A stretch of DNA of 64,000 bases from Octopus sinensis (taxonomy: Eukaryota). Below, one piece after another: positions 1,631 to 33,750 of the stretch (position 1 is its first letter; each line of letters starts with the position of its first letter). The notes under the pieces were generated by a model. The model was not told the DNA's origin and ran no database searches. It was given only the letters and a program-made list of their open reading frames with translations. The stretch lies in NCBI RefSeq assembly GCF_006345805.1, contig NC_042998.1:74772001-74836000 (forward strand), written 5' to 3'. Both the position numbers and the translations under genes were made by a program.

Positions 1631-1710
1631 ACGTACGTACGTAGTACATACTTAGTGTTTGCTTCTTTCATGGGTATGAGTAAGTATTTCATTTATTTCT
1701 TTGCCACATT

Positions 1711-1763
1711 TATCACTGACGAAAGGAGGGTTCTTATGAACTAACCCTGAAATCGGTCCGATA
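1711..1763 (+). ncRNA. Type I hammerhead ribozyme motif (Penelope-type)
   Basis: tatca-CTGACGA-a-agg..ggttc ttat gaact..cct-GAA-ATCGGT-C-cgata. Core intact, GUC site at 1756-1758. Stem I has one A.C mismatch; the paralog at 34446 reads tatcg. Confidence 0.7.
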
Positions 1764-1796
1764 TGGTAATAATGGAATTGTTTAGAAAATTCTCCA

Positions 1797-1972: not shown

Positions 1973-3510
1973 CTGACGAGAAATGTTACAAGTATCTAGG
2001 GGTGGATGAAAATATATCTTACAATGCCACCTGTAACATAACATAAGTGTCACTAAAGAACAATACAGCCGAATAAAGAAAATTTGGATCTCAGAACTCT
2101 CTGCATTCAATAAAACAGTGGCCCACAATGTGTTTGCAGTGCCAGTACTCATACCAACATTTGGGCTGCTTGATTGGACGCTTGATGAGATTCGAGCCAT
2201 TGATGTGAAACTCGAAAAATACTAACAAGCACACATAATTTCCACATAAGCAGTGACATAGGCCGCCTCTACCTAAAACATAAACAAGGCGGCAGATGCT
2301 TAACATCAATACAAAATGCCTTTGAATGTCGCATCATATTCCTTCGGCAATATCTTAAAACCATCAAGCGTCGAAGTCCATCTCTTGACCAAGTTTGCAT
2401 ACATGAGACTGATAACATCATAAAACTTGGAAAGCAACTCCTTGAGCAATACTCTTTATCTGATAACCTAGAATACATGCCCAAAGAAGTTGCACGACCC
2501 TACCGCAGCATATCATCAGATGAAAGGATGAGCCTAGTAGAAAGCTCCGTGATAATAGTAACAACAAAGCAGTTTATCATGGACCAATAGCCGGATTACT
2601 ACCACCCACTTTGAAAGGTATGCGTTTGCAATCCAGGAACAGGAAATATCAACCAAGTACCAGCTGCACAAATGGGATAGAGATGCGGGAAAAGCCGTAA
2701 AGTGTGACAACCGATGGAGAATTTGTGGAGTCCACACTGAAAATGTCACCCACACCATTAGCAGTTGTCCGAAAATGTCATCACGGTATTATCTACCGAT
2801 GAGACATGACGTTGTAGCTAGTTCACTCTATACTGAAATCTGTCGGAAGGATAATCCCTAAAACAAAGAAATAAAAACTCAGAATATGGTAGAAGCCATA
2901 GCCACTCAAAATGAAAATGAATATTGGTGGAATGTACCAATGAAGACCTCAAAATGTTAGCACAACACACCTGATATAATGATTTGGGATAGAGAAGAGA
3001 AATTGTATACAATTGTGGAAAGTAGTTGCCCAGCGGATGTTAACATAAAGCTAAAGATCAGTGAAAAAGAGAACACCTATGCTGAACTACTGAGAAATCT
3101 GCAGTTACTCTATTCAGATTACAAGTTCAGATTATACTTGTAATTATCAGGGCCCTGTGATATGTAACACACTACCTAAGTACCAATCTTGAGAATTTAG
3201 GCATCTCAAAACCAGAAAGGAGAACGCTAATTCGAAGACTACAGATCCAGTCCATTATTGGAACTGTAAAAATCTCTAAAACTTTCCAGACGTTTATCAT
3301 TTGAATATATAAGAGCAAGTCTAGTTATGTAACTATATGCATGAGAATACATAGATAAAACATACAAATTTTCACATACATACACACATACATACAAACA
3401 AAAATACCCTGTTGCTGATGTTGAAATTCCAATAAAAGAACCTTGGATTTAGGTTAGGTGCTGATTCTTTATCTATTGGCAAGAGATCTTGAAATAAACT
3501 GAATAATGAC
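1973..3510 (+). mobile_element. 5'-truncated, frameshifted R4/Dong-clade non-LTR retrotransposon (RT C-terminus, CCHC finger, restriction-like endonuclease)
   Basis: Plus-strand peptides: KCYKYLGVDEN; NKTVAHNVFAVPVLIPTFGLLDW; RLYLKHKQGGRCL; degenerate CCHC knuckle (WRICGVHTENVTHTISSC); MRHDVVA; PDIMIWDREEKLYTIVESSCP..KISEKENTY (PD-(D/E)xK). The 3' UTR ends gaaataaactgaataatgac. Confidence 0.9.
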
Positions 3511-16432: not shown

Positions 16433-17292
16433 ATACATACACCACACACTCTCAAGCGAGAACACACATATATAATTGAAAACCAAAAGGATAGTGAAGA
16501 TTTATTCACGTCTGAGACTTTTATTAAAACGTTTTCTACAGCATATATAACAATGACCAACATATGTTTCTACTGCAGCAACTACACATTGTTCTGCGAG
16601 CAATTATGCAGCCTAGTTGCTACAGTTTCATCAAAGGTCCATCACTTACGACGTTTTCATAGTGAGCTAATTGAAACAAGACTCTCGCGTTGGTATTTAA
16701 TTGAAGGTGATACCGTTACTTTTTAAATCGAATTGAATTCTGGTCTTATAATCTCTTCTACTGGTATTGCAGTAGAATTGTGGTTTTACATTTTTTAATA
16801 TATATTACAATTAATTGGAGCAGTTTTCTTCACATTTTACTGTATAAAGGGAGATAAGGAGAGAAAAGAGAATAAGGAATGTATTGAAAGGAGAAATCAA
16901 AAACGGTTAAGAAGGTCATTAAGGCTTTTCACGATTAGAAAATTTAGCCGGAATGAGCAGCTTGAGAGAGGTGTGCTGATAAAGGGATATGAGGGAAACG
17001 GACAAGTAAAGAAAAAAACAAAAACAAAAACAAAAACAAATGGCCATAAGAACCTGGAATATGTTTATTTAAATTCATTGAGAGACATATAAAGACATAC
17101 ACATTCATGTATATACGTATAGATACACATATGCATGTACGCATATACATACGTAAAAACATACATACATGCATAGATGCGTACATACATACATACATAC
17201 TTACATACTAAAAACATTCATAGATATATAAAAAGAAGCTCACTCTAAGTTATACAGCAGTTTATAATATAAAGTTAGATAGGGACAGTTAA

Positions 17293-17355
17293 TAGGATTA
17301 TCCTGGGTTTCACGTCCATAAAGCGCTTAGTTTTATGGCCTATCATCAGATCCCA
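17293..17355 (-). ncRNA. Type I hammerhead motif (left arm)
   Basis: Reverse complement: tgggat-CTGATGA-t-aggccataaa..tttatggacgt-GAA-ACCCAGGAT-A-atccta. Confidence 0.65.
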
Positions 17356-17373
17356 AAATCTGCTTGCTTGTTT

Positions 17374-17436
17374 TGGGATCTGATGATATGGCGTAAATCT
17401 AAGCGCTTCATGGACGTGAAACCCAGTGTTATCCCA
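17374..17436 (+). ncRNA. Type I hammerhead motif (right arm)
   Basis: tgggat-CTGATGA-t-atg...cgt-GAA-ACCCAGTGT-T-atccca; perfect 6-bp stem I, GUU site. Confidence 0.7.
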
Positions 17437-17721
17437 TAAACTGGGCTTATCTAACTTTATTCACACACACACATATATATATATATATATGTAGATATAT
17501 ATATATACGGTAAAATTATACTTAAGGGCACAGAAGCTATAATTGTACCATATACAATTTTATATTTCTATATATGTATTTTACCTAAAAGATTTTACAT
17601 ATGCTGGTCTCTCATAAAATTCGTTGATTTTAATTTTTTATCCTTCAGTTATGCTTATATATATATACAAGCAGAGATACACGGCGTTCCTCGGGATTAA
17701 AATGGCATAGTTTATTTTATT

Positions 17722-19042: not shown

Positions 19043-20720
19043 GGTTAAACTAAAGCGTTACACCATTCAAAGAAACAAAAAAATGTGTGTAATAGGTGTA
19101 AAACAACTTCCTCTGAACGAATATGAAAAAAAATGCGCGCACCCGAAAGGGGAGTGGGGAGAGGCCTCGGAAAATTTACAACGGGAATTTCCGATAGCGT
19201 CTGACCCGGGCGCAAAAACAAAAACAAAAATAGCGTAATAGGTGTAAAACAACTTGCTCTAAATGAATATGACAAAAAATGCGCACTCGCGAAAGAGGGG
19301 TGGGGCAGAGGCCTCGGAAAATTTACATCGGGAATTTCCGAAAGCGTCTGACCCGGGCACAAAACCAAAAACAAAAATAGCGCAATAGGTGTAAAACAAC
19401 TTGCTCTAAACGACTATGATGAAAGAAATGCGCGCTCACGAAAGGGGGCGTGGGGGAGAGGCTTCGGAAAGTTCACATCTTCAGGGTCGATAGTATATAG
19501 CGATTCTTGGGCTGCGTATAACTCTCTTGGAAATCTCGGCTATACCCTCTTCCGCATCAACCACAGTGAAAATTTTGTTGATCCTACAAACGCGTCGGTG
19601 CACACACAGGTGATAGAGAGATTGTGGGGGTCAGTTAAGAGATCAGTTGTTCGCCCAGGCATTCTTGCCTGTTACTTAAAGCAATACCTCGCCAAGTTCC
19701 TATTTATGGAAAGCATCAAACCTGCTGCCAAGAGAATACACGTATTCTTATTGGCAGTAGCAAGTCTTCATCCTGGCCCGAGATAATTTTTTCCTCCAAA
19801 CGCAACCCATCTCATTTCTTTATCATCACTGTCGATGGACCACTCAAAGAGGTATGTATACATTATCATTTTCGTAATATAATTTCTGTAAAATTTCAAG
19901 ATGTTTCTGACACGTATTTTGATTCACATGGCGAAGATCCAACATTTCTTCACTTTTTCCAGAATTTCTTCTCTTTATTTTTCTTTTTTGCGAAATATGT
20001 ACAAAAATACGGAGTTTATGATTCATGAGTGAGTGTGTGTTCTTGATAATCGTTTAGAACAAGTAGTTTTACACCAATTACACTATTTTTTCTTAGTTTA
20101 AAGGCCGTGGACTGAAGATGTGAAATTTCCGAAGCCTCTCCCCACCCCCTTTCGTGAGCGCGCATTTTTTTCATCATATTCGTTTAGAGCAAGTTGTTTT
20201 ACACCTATTACGCTATTTTTGTTTTTGTTTTTGTGCCCGGGTCAGACGCTTTCGGAAATTCCCGATGTAAATTTTCCGAGGCCTCTCCCCCACCCCTCTT
20301 TCGCGAGTGCGCATTTTGTTTTTGTCATATTCGTTTAGAGCAAATTGTTTTACACATATTACACTATTTTTTGTTTGTTTTGGTGCCCAGGTCAGCCCCT
20401 CCGACGCTTTAGGAAATTCCCGATGTGAATTTTCCGAGGCCTCTCCCCACCCCTCTTTCGCGAGTGCGCATTTTGTTTTTGTCATATTCGTTTAGAGCAA
20501 ATTGTTTTACACATATTACACTATTTTTTGTTTGTTTTGGTGCCCAGGTCAGCCCCTCCGACGCTTTAGGAAATTCCCGATGTGAATTTTCCGAGGCCTC
20601 TCCTCCACTCCCCTTTCGCGTGCGCGCATTTGTTTTCATATTCGTTCAGAGGAAGTTGTTTTACACCTATTACACACATTTTTTTTGTTTCTTTGAATGG
20701 TGTAGTGCTTTAGTTTAACC
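19043..20720 (+). mobile_element. Internally deleted Merlin (IS1595/IS1016-like) DNA transposon with long compound TIRs
   Basis: Termini GGTTAAACTAAAGC...GCTTTAGTTTAACC. 8-bp TSD gaatttcc / gaaattcc. TIRs at about 19043-19484 and 20111-20720 are built of about 150-bp tandem units. Confidence 0.9.
19481..19786 (+). pseudogene. C-terminal half of a Merlin/IS1595-family DDE transposase
   Basis: Open frame SGSIVYSDSWAAYNSLGNLGYTLFRINHSENFVDPTNASVHTQVIERLWGSVKR, matching IxSDxWxAY..NHS..FVDP..HTQxIExxW. The N-terminus and first catalytic Asp are missing. Confidence 0.9.
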
Positions 20721-20845
20721 GAAATTCCAACTTTGATTTTCACGCTTTATTTACAATCTTATAATAATATAACATAATATAATATAATATAATATAATAT
20801 AATATAATATAATGAAATTGTAGAATATTAAATGTCCATTCTGAT

Positions 20846-20890
20846 TGAACTAGTACTTTCATGCATTAAAGTATGCAATCGTCAGGTTCA
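20846..20890 (-). ncRNA. Minimal type I hammerhead ribozyme motif
   Basis: Reverse complement: tgaac-CTGACGA-t-tgcat acttta atgca-t-GAA-AGTACT-A-gttca. Perfect stems I and II, palindromic stem III, CUA site. Confidence 0.8.
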
Positions 20891-21573
20891 TGTAGTAGTG
20901 GTGACAGTTATGTTTTATAATTTACATCGGTGGCTAGGTGGCTAAACTGTGTGCCTTAAATACATTTGTATAGGCTCCAGAATGTTCATTTTTGCAATCT
21001 GCATTCTGACCCATCAGTGTGTGATTTTACTAAAGTACTCAAGTTGATTGGTGTTTCGTTTAGACGTCACGGTTTGTATATAGATATTTTGTATATATGC
21101 ATACATATATACATAAATATATACATGTACATACACAAATATATATGAATATATAAATATATATAAATATTTATACACACATATATACATATATATATAT
21201 ACATATAATATATATATATATATATATACACACACATCTATACATATATATACATACATATTTTTAAAATGTTAGGGAATAATAAGTATTCCAGGTTATC
21301 AGGACATTTACTATTTTACACTTTACTAATGCAATGTAAACAGTATCATTTATAATATTTTTACAAATTTGGGATTTTACCAATAGTACCGCAACTCATA
21401 TTTCAGGATAACCTTATTTTATGGAATGCACATAGAAAGTTATATCCAATAAAATAATATAAGCATTCAAAACACTTACTATATAAAATACAATAAAATT
21501 ATTTGAAAAATATTTGAAAAATATATATATAACTTACCTGTTATTAGTCAGTGGGGAAAGAAGATATTTGTAA

Positions 21574-33021: not shown

Positions 33022-33053
<32 letters not shown>

Positions 33054-33206
33054 TGTATGTATGTATGTATGTATGTATAGCAAAAATTGAGATTCAGATG
33101 AATACGGTACTTAAGCTGAGGCACCAGAATTTAGTATGGTATTATCCATACAATTTTAAAATAAGGTGATCAAAATCAACATAAGCAACAACGGTATCCA
33201 GAAGTA

Positions 33207-33294
33207 ATGCAGTACGATCGTTTCATGCAACTACATTTAATTGAACAATGCAACTATTACATCAATTTAAATGCAGAGCAATCCTCAGCTGCAC
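33207..33294 (-). ncRNA. Type I hammerhead with extended stem II (left arm)
   Basis: Reverse complement: gtgcag-CTGAGGA-t-tgc t ctgcattta a attga...tcaat taaatgtag t tgca-t-GAA-ACGATCGT-A-ctgcat. Confidence 0.8.
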
Positions 33295-33347
33295 AGACAT
33301 ATAATTTAATGTTCATCTGTTTTAATTTAATTAAATTCTATGTCTTT

Positions 33348-33435
33348 GTGCAGCTGAGGATTGCTCTGCATTTAAATTGATGTAATGGCTGCATTGTTAA
33401 ATTAAATGGAGTTGCGTGAAACGATCGTACTGCAT
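33348..33435 (+). ncRNA. Type I hammerhead with extended stem II (right arm)
   Basis: gtgcag-CTGAGGA-ttgc...gcgt-GAA-ACGATCGT-A-ctgcat; predicted cleavage after 33429 (GUA). Confidence 0.8.
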
Positions 33436-33513
33436 TACCTCTGGATATCCTTGTATGTATGTATATGTATGTATGTATGTCTGTACGTACGTACGTATGT
33501 GTGTATGTATGTA

Positions 33514-33750
33514 ATTATTCAGTTTTATTTCAAGATTTCTTGCCAATAAAGAGCCGATTTCTAACCTAGATCAACAGGGTATTTTTGCATGTATGTATGC
33601 GTACAGATTCCTATCTTTTGTTTTATGTATGTATTCTCACAGATATAGTTGCATATCTAGACATGCTCATATATGCTTAAATGATAAAATTCTTGAAAAG
33701 TTTAGAGATTTCTACAGTTCAATGATGGACTGGATACGTAGACTTCTAAT
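33514..33750 (-). mobile_element. 3' end of the R4/Dong LINE family of 1973-3510
   Basis: The reverse complement matches 3230-3510 with an internal deletion; (TATG)n lies on both sides. Confidence 0.85.

What the first reader, a model, noticed from the sequence alone, without database searches (positions are those of the whole stretch)
33080..33453. Second double-hammerhead foldback, with both cores intact and long stem II
Seen: arms of about 120 bp. Both retain gtgcag-CUGAGGA...GAA-ACGAUCGU-A-cugcau and an extended stem II of about 57 nt. The left arm continues about 110 bp further (to about 33080), and the unit is embedded in (TATG)n next to a Dong 3' end. It is unrelated in sequence to the 17.3 kb cassette but has the same architecture, so the arrangement arose repeatedly. 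Inference: a general integration product of these ribozyme retroelements, or a self-contained non-autonomous unit. Predicted cut sites are after 33429 (+) and after 33213 (-).
Basis: partly seen in the sequence, partly recalled or inferred. Interest (0 to 1): 0.8.

Follow-up and report, generated by a model that had tools for sequence, protein, structure and literature searches.

The report
Head-to-head Penelope retrotransposon insertion
The two mirror-image ribozyme motifs are two truncated end-pieces of one Penelope-like retrotransposon family joined head to head, a known insertion shape and not a mobile unit; across such insertions one arm almost always ends at an early site and the other at a later one, which likely means the enzyme starts two DNA copies, one from each strand of the cut target.

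Summary
In detail: 116-nt arms, 91% complementary, both hammerhead cores intact, cut positions as stated. Each arm is the 5'-truncated end of a multi-copy Penelope-like element (RT plus GIY-YIG, Hydra-clade motifs). The extra 108 bp on the left is the element's 'tail', which in full-length copies is the 5' UTR. The junction is unique in the genome, and 42 of 94 sampled copies carry an inverted piece at varied axes. So this is a general integration product, not a self-contained unit. The shape is published: inverted 5'-truncated copy, tail at one end, opposite-strand hammerheads 100-700 bp apart. The cores lie on opposite strands and cannot form a double hammerhead in cis; read-through RNA is predicted to fold into a long hairpin instead. 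What I add is a count: in four unrelated families, 54 of 55 classifiable foldbacks pair one early end with one late end, against at most 50% by chance, and either arm may carry the tail. This favours two target-primed cDNAs per insertion (inferred). New member of a known kind; modest interest.

The parts
33024..33078 (.). (TATG)n array, left part of the microsatellite target
   Evidence: TRF
33080..33310 (-). Tailed arm: 5'-truncated end (pLTR plus tail) of the Penelope-like family, ending at the late site B, about 133 nt past the hammerhead cut
   Evidence: 90-93% identity to the 39 other top-scored copies, 3233 candidates; mapping
33080..33174 (-). Tail beyond the early site A (about 95 nt); in full-length copies this sequence is the 5' UTR leading to the ORF start
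   Evidence: L169, L175, L191 run from hammerhead through tail into the ATG
33207..33294 (-). Type I hammerhead motif, minus strand; predicted cut after 33213
   Evidence: descriptor scan
33307..33310 (.). Head-to-head junction; 4-nt overlap shared by both arms; unique in the genome
   Evidence: sequence, BLAST junction at 33310, single genome match
33307..33454 (+). Tailless arm: inverted 5'-truncated copy ending 25 nt past the cut, 13 nt short of the modal early site A
33348..33435 (+). Type I hammerhead motif, plus strand; core 33354-33360, stem II region 33361-33417, palindromic stem III 33421-33428, predicted cut after 33429
33452..33513 (.). (TATG)n array, right part of the target, same orientation as the left
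   Evidence: TRF
33514..33748 (-). Separate neighbour, not part of the unit: 3' end of a LINE with restriction-like endonuclease motifs (R4/Dong-like, name recalled)
   Evidence: (73-87% to paralogs, 2045 candidates)

Best explanation
The foldback is a single insertion made of two 5'-truncated end-pieces of a Penelope-like retrotransposon family joined head to head inside a (TATG)n microsatellite, and it likely arose when the element's protein primed two cDNAs, one from each strand of the cut target. Shown: the parent element has the order pLTR with hammerhead, 5' UTR, one ORF (RT, Asn-rich linker, Cys linker, GIY-YIG), long 3' UTR, pLTR with hammerhead, tail; copies end at two preferred sites, A (38 nt past the hammerhead cut) and B (about 121-134 nt past it); foldbacks pair one A end with one B end. 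Inferred: the GIY-YIG domain nicks both strands; one cDNA starts at A and the other at B on element RNA whose hammerhead is uncleaved or re-ligated; both stop early; their 3' ends are joined (here through 4 shared bases) and the gaps filled. The hammerheads are passengers of the copied pLTR and are predicted to be inactive at this locus. Confidence in the identity about 0.95; in the two-cDNA mechanism about 0.6.
For: Family: 3233 candidates, 244 exact 27-mers. Link to a PLE ORF: GIY-YIG exon, 3' UTR and hammerhead collinear in L098, L102, L149, L155, L156, L164; L155 aligns to a full-length RT-GIY-YIG protein at E 1e-67 (RT) and 1e-10 (endonuclease). Tail equals 5' UTR. Varied axes at 33 junctions. 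End pairing: 26 of 27 A+B in this family, binomial p 2e-7 against 0.5; 12 of 12 in the 17.3 kb family, 11 of 11 and 5 of 5 in two more (the last three counted by hand). The tailed arm reaches further 5' in 13 of 26, so neither arm is a simple copy of the other. No clean tail-to-tail pair in 94 loci (two downstream inverted hits: one 77% identical and 1.6 kb away, one compound). Both end types abut simple repeats: 56 of 115 flanks against 8.3% of random positions. Arms share minority alleles 29 times against 11 expected, and agree at 102 of 124 diagnostic cells against 71: same source lineage. In vitro, an anole PLE cleaves and extends both target strands, starts RT at two internal sites that bound the tail, is modelled as a dimer, and does not need hammerhead cleavage (PMC11167929).
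Against: The mechanism rests on genomic patterns only. The in vitro study saw no difference in start site between strands, so it does not itself predict the A+B rule. Junction microhomology is not general: 10 of 33 junctions overlap, 4 are flush, 19 have a gap (BLAST ends). Five of 33 junctions are near-symmetric (within 3 nt), three of them with short inverted arms, which looks like snap-back. 14 of 42 inverted segments were too short to classify and were dropped; two B calls (L203, L235) are soft (24 of 25 without them); class limits were set after seeing the histogram. Diagnostic concordance (82%) is below the 91.5% at other columns, so one RNA molecule is not shown. Pfam gives only a sub-threshold GIY-YIG hit (E 0.01) and no RT hit. 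No tree was built.
Confidence: 0.75

Rival explanations
1. Same element, but the inversion comes from self-priming (snap-back) on an antisense template or on the cDNA, with the endonuclease then trimming one arm at A and leaving the other at B.
For: Proposed in print from palindromes at inverted junctions (PMC3846280); tail ascribed to endonuclease resolution (PMC8557442). Five of 33 junctions here are near-symmetric. Arms share subfamily variants.
Against: Snap-back of a target-anchored cDNA cannot give a tailed arm that is shorter at its 5' end than the tailless arm, seen in 12 of 26 including this locus. 5' lengths differ by a median of about 98 nt and up to 922 nt. The version with a free hairpin cut asymmetrically is not excluded.
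Confidence: 0.2
2. A self-contained non-autonomous foldback unit that moves as a whole.
For: Both cores are intact and the shape recurs.
Against: The junction is unique in the genome; 33 junctions show varied axes; the arms are pieces of a longer element.
Confidence: 0.02
3. A selected, functional pair of ribozymes or a host-used hairpin RNA at this locus.
For: Across related subfamilies the core is kept and stems covary (18 cells changed on both sides against 4.7 shuffled), so the motif was under selection in the source elements. Family-like reads occur in both orientations.
Against: The arms here have diverged from each other by 9% like other copies. Read-through RNA folds at about -196 kcal/mol against -81 with the hammerhead forced, stem I probability 0. 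Isolated arms prefer other folds by 6.1 and 2.9 kcal/mol. No reads cover the unique left flank and few are 99% alike (runs may be of another species).
Confidence: 0.03

Closest known systems
Hydra clade of Penelope-like elements (Craig et al. 2021, PMC8557442; includes Hydra-1_Obim)
   Same: C-terminal GIY-YIG; DKT motif; CxCX5C linker; CxxC and CxH near the C-terminus; hammerhead in the pLTR; (TA)n targets; partial tandem plus inverted 5'-truncated copy.
   Different: About 6 kb rather than under 3 kb: Asn-rich insert and a 3' UTR of roughly 2.3-3 kb net with degenerate ~840-bp repeats. RWK reads RW(I/M) in this family. Not Hydra-1_Obim itself (that resembles the 17.3 kb family, compared by eye). 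57-nt stem II region against 21 nt in the Hydra-1_Obim entry.
Inverted-pLTR insertions with a one-sided tail (Adineta Pen2a, PMC3846280; general scheme in PMC8557442)
   Same: Head-to-head inverted copy at the 5' end, short overlap at the junction, tail on one arm.
   Different: Tail 83-95 nt rather than 30-40 nt; those papers call the tail 'optional' or 'often' one-sided, here it is counted (54 of 55) and is independent of which arm is longer.
PLE hammerheads (Cervera and de la Pena 2014, PMC4209133)
   Same: Type I, short palindromic helix III suited to dimers, long helix II; dual motifs 100-700 bp apart on opposite strands were already reported in Schistosoma mansoni.
   Different: Much longer helix II; closing pair U.U in place of G10.1-C11.1.
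Anole Poseidon PAc in vitro (Frangieh et al. 2024, PMC11167929)
   Same: Two internal RT start sites downstream of the hammerhead bounding the tail; AT-rich targets.
   Different: There the sites lie inside the ORF; here both lie in the 5' UTR (ATG 184 nt past the cut). No strand-to-site pairing was reported.
Non-LTR retrozymes (bioRxiv 10.64898/2026.07.22.740005)
   Same: Type I hammerhead, PLE-derived.
   Different: Retrozymes are head-to-tail tandems of a non-coding unit; this locus is head-to-head and its family has a coding parent.

Membership tests
Penelope-like element (EN+) | Single ORF with RT followed by C-terminal GIY-YIG | tested here: met
   L155 aligns to P0003 over RT (35%, E 1e-67) and endonuclease (E 1e-10); Pfam GIY-YIG E 0.01, below cut-off; no Pfam RT hit for this or for intact homologues. 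All copies read are broken.
Penelope-like element (EN+) | pLTR with hammerhead both before the ORF and at the 3' end | tested here: met
   Before the ORF in L169, L175, L187, L191, L195; after the 3' UTR in L149, L155, L156, L164
Penelope-like element (EN+) | 5' truncation, inverted 5' copy, tail at one end | tested here: met
   42 of 94 loci with an inverted segment; 26 of 27 one-sided tails
Penelope-like element (EN+) | Tail length 30-40 bp | tested here: not met
   About 83-95 nt; a descriptive figure rather than a strict criterion
Hydra clade | DKG modified to DKT | tested here: met
   ADKTG in L155
Hydra clade | CxCX5C linker; CxxC and CxH near conserved E and N; no CCHH in the endonuclease | tested here: met
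   Translations of L031, L098, L102, read by eye against section 11 of PMC8557442
Hydra clade | N-terminal RWK motif | tested here: inconclusive
   RW(I/M) in this family; RWK read by eye in a 68-69% subfamily
Hydra clade | Insertion into (TA)n | tested here: met
   56 of 115 ends flanked by simple repeats, mostly (TA)n, against 8.3% random
Hydra clade | Generally short (under 3 kb) | tested here: not met
   L155 spans about 6.3 kb with one insertion; 'generally' in the source, so not exclusionary
Hydra clade | Placement in the clade by RT phylogeny | not tested
   No named reference proteins were held as sequences
Type I hammerhead ribozyme | Core CUGAnGA / GAAA / UH with stems I-III | tested here: met
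   covariation across 18 arms chosen mostly by RT linkage
Type I hammerhead ribozyme | G10.1-C11.1 closing pair | tested here: not met
   U.U in both window arms; unpaired in 15 of 18 aligned arms
Type I hammerhead ribozyme | Self-cleavage | not testable with these tools
   Needs an assay
Non-LTR retrozyme | Head-to-tail tandem units each with a hammerhead, no coding parent | tested here: not met
   Head-to-head, and linked to an ORF
Mobile foldback unit / MITE | Same inverted unit at many loci | tested here: not met
   Junction unique

The most novel reading that the evidence does not exclude
Penelope-like elements integrate by an asymmetric double priming: one ribonucleoprotein opens both target strands and always assigns the early RT start site to one strand and the late site to the other, perhaps with two RT subunits running on one (possibly circular) RNA. 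The head-to-head foldback with a one-sided tail is then the direct fossil of this step. The 54-of-55 pairing across Hydra-type, Neptune-like and retrozyme-like families would be a clade-wide rule that the existing in vitro system can test directly.
Probability: 0.5. Interest if true: 0.6.

Novelty: new member of a known kind. Interest (0 to 1): 0.3.

Why it matters
The locus itself is ordinary: one of dozens of such insertions per family. It matters as a sample of a pattern. How PLEs form their tandem and inverted structures is named as an open question in PMC8557442. A strict one-early, one-late pairing, independent of which arm is longer, is a sharp constraint that separates double target-priming from snap-back and can be tested in the published in vitro system. 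It also warns that opposite-strand hammerhead pairs in animal genomes are expected transposition by-products rather than ribozyme dimers.

Tried and rejected
Rfam at E up to 1 gave microsatellite-driven miRNA hits and no hammerhead in the 150 rows shown; the long stem II probably escapes the models. Pfam does not recognise the RT of this family or of its intact homologues. Ends scored at +240/+242 are an artefact of the yardstick copy's (TA) flank; true late ends are about +212 to +235. A PLE ORF on the minus strand in L109/L110 first looked linked but is another family. No RNA holder was listed for the stretch; three raw RNA runs and one contig set gave family-level reads in both orientations, no pile of ends and few near-identical reads; a fragmented cDNA library cannot show a ribozyme cut, so this says nothing on cleavage. 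Junction microhomology as a general rule was not supported. One RNA versus two could not be separated. The scan's earlier findings held nothing for this genome. No structure or complex prediction was run, as all ORFs seen are broken.

Full report
Observation. The inverted repeat is real: arms 33188-33303 and 33339-33454, 116 nt, 91% complementary. A descriptor scan finds a type I hammerhead on each strand, with 6-bp stem I, a 57-nt stem II region, an 8-nt palindromic stem III and cuts after 33429 (+) and 33213 (-). The cores point away from each other. (TATG)n flanks both sides in one orientation.

What the arms are. The left arm plus its extension matches a dispersed family at 90-93% (3233 candidates, 40 scored); the core 27-mer has 244 exact matches, the reversed control none. 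Walking upstream through natural copies gave an AT-rich 3' UTR with degenerate ~840-bp repeats, a GIY-YIG region and an RT. L155 holds most of the element and aligns to an intact unnamed RT-GIY-YIG protein at E 1e-67 and 1e-10. In L169, L175, L191 and L195 the hammerhead and the extension run straight into the ATG, 180-184 nt past the cut where measured. The extension is therefore the PLE tail and equals the 5' UTR. Motifs fit the Hydra clade as defined in section 11 of PMC8557442: DKT, CxCX5C, CxxC and CxH, no CCHH, (TA)n targets. Length and the RWK motif deviate, and no tree was built. All ORFs read are broken.

Unit or by-product. I took all 100 listed of the 244 pattern matches (contigs C1-C8; 144 not listed), which give 94 loci. 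42 of 94 have an inverted family segment upstream (a lower bound, as most loci held only 1.5-2 kb of flank). The 33 close junctions have varied axes, and this locus's junction occurs once in the genome. Near-full-length copies show inverted pLTR, direct pLTR, ORF, the arrangement drawn in PMC8557442. The 17.3 kb cassette belongs to a second PLE family whose protein resembles Hydra-1_Obim by eye. The neighbouring LINE end is a separate insertion in the same microsatellite.

The end rule. Outer ends are bimodal: A at 38 nt past the cut and B at about 121-134 nt. Of the 42, 14 had inverted arms too short to classify and one had a truncated main arm; of the remaining 27, 26 are A+B and one A+A (p 2e-7 against 0.5; unpaired copies are 34 A, 26 B, 6 unclear). 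Without two soft calls it is 24 of 25. Hand counts in three other families from this window: 12 of 12 (30 hits, 26 insertions, 13 inverted, one dropped); 11 of 11 (30 hits, 28 insertions); 5 of 5 (28 usable loci, two mis-oriented by my script and dropped, 8 inverted, 3 unclassifiable). Total 54 of 55. Class limits were set after viewing the data. The tailed arm reaches further 5' in 13 of 26, is shorter in 12 and ties in one; this locus is one of the 12. Arms of one locus are slightly more alike than arms of different loci (91.5% against 89.7%, 20 of 25) and agree at diagnostic columns (102 of 124 against 71 expected), which shows a common source lineage but not a common RNA molecule.

Mechanism. 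Two cDNAs primed from the two target strands give exactly this geometry: 3' ends outward against the microsatellite, truncated 5' ends meeting in the middle. PMC11167929 shows both-strand cleavage and extension, two internal start sites bounding the tail, a modelled dimer and no need for hammerhead cleavage, but no strand-to-site pairing. I infer one start at A and one at B, then joining, here through a 4-nt overlap. Snap-back (PMC3846280) fits the five near-symmetric junctions but not the 12 cases with a shorter tailed arm, unless a free hairpin is cut asymmetrically. I put double priming at about 0.6.

The ribozymes. Across 18 arms, 16 of them picked by RT linkage and a fuzzy core pattern, core positions are invariant or nearly so and stems covary (18 double changes against 4.7 shuffled; related sequences inflate this control, and the core pattern biases core conservation). 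A distant subfamily keeps a palindromic stem III through compensating changes. So the motif was selected in source elements, likely as a dimer. At this locus the cores cannot pair in cis, the closing pair is U.U, isolated arms prefer other folds, and read-through RNA forms a long hairpin with stem I probability 0. RNA data are family-level and uninformative on cleavage.

Prior art and what I read. PMC8557442: passages, section 11 whole, supplement look-ups; it describes the inverted copy and a tail often at one end. PMC4209133: parts 1-2 of 4; it reports dual hammerheads 100-700 bp apart on opposite strands. PMC11167929: parts 1-2 of 4. PMC3846280: part 1 of 5 and passages. bioRxiv 10.64898/2026.07.22.740005: part 1 of 5; its supplements are closed. 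PMC13282606: passages, no mention of hammerheads. [quoted passage not shown]

Verdict. Real, correctly described and of a known kind: a head-to-head insertion of a long Hydra-type Penelope-like family that I did not find described. The interest lies in the end-pairing rule, not in the locus. Interest 0.3.

Noticed in passing
window 17270-17460: The first foldback belongs to a second Hydra-type PLE family, protein close to Hydra-1_Obim by eye; it also pairs an early with a late end (12 of 12 two-ended foldbacks).
   Followed up: yes
window 1650-1795 (+); L299-L328: Hammerhead family with 97-98% identical copies; several loci (L313, L324, L327, L328) show head-to-tail permutation of a unit of about 400 bp or more and no ORF was seen, so it looks retrozyme-like; 11 of 11 foldbacks follow the same end rule. 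A 58-bp internal inverted match was also seen.
   Followed up: partly
window 20760-20920 (-); L329-L358: Hammerhead at the end of a PLE with CxxC motifs around the GIY-YIG (Neptune-like, name recalled), tail about 25 nt, variable (ATATT)n stretch downstream of the ribozyme.
   Followed up: partly
L098, L099, L100 (3' UTR of the family): Three to four degenerate repeats at ~840-bp spacing make up the long 3' UTR; origin and role unknown.
   Followed up: no
L155, L159, L162 (ORF linker): Long Asn-rich insert of variable length between RT thumb and endonuclease, as reported for rotifer Penelope elements (PMC3846280).
   Followed up: no
family sites A and B (L169, L190, L191, L195): The two preferred ends fall at equivalent positions of two imperfect copies of a ~12-nt motif 83 nt apart, and both end in AT, matching the (TA)n target; possibly one binding site per subunit.
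   Followed up: partly
window ~2000-3510 (+), 1563-1625 and 33514-33748: Broken LINE with CCHC and restriction-like endonuclease motifs, and two more pieces of its 3' end, each abutting microsatellites.
   Followed up: partly
L031:8895-9437 (+): An open frame whose translation looks like an interleukin-17-type cystine-knot exon (resemblance recalled, not tested) lies about 550 bp from a family copy.
   Followed up: no
window 19089-19479 and 20117-20690: Two arrays of a 147-157 bp unit in opposite orientations.
   Followed up: no
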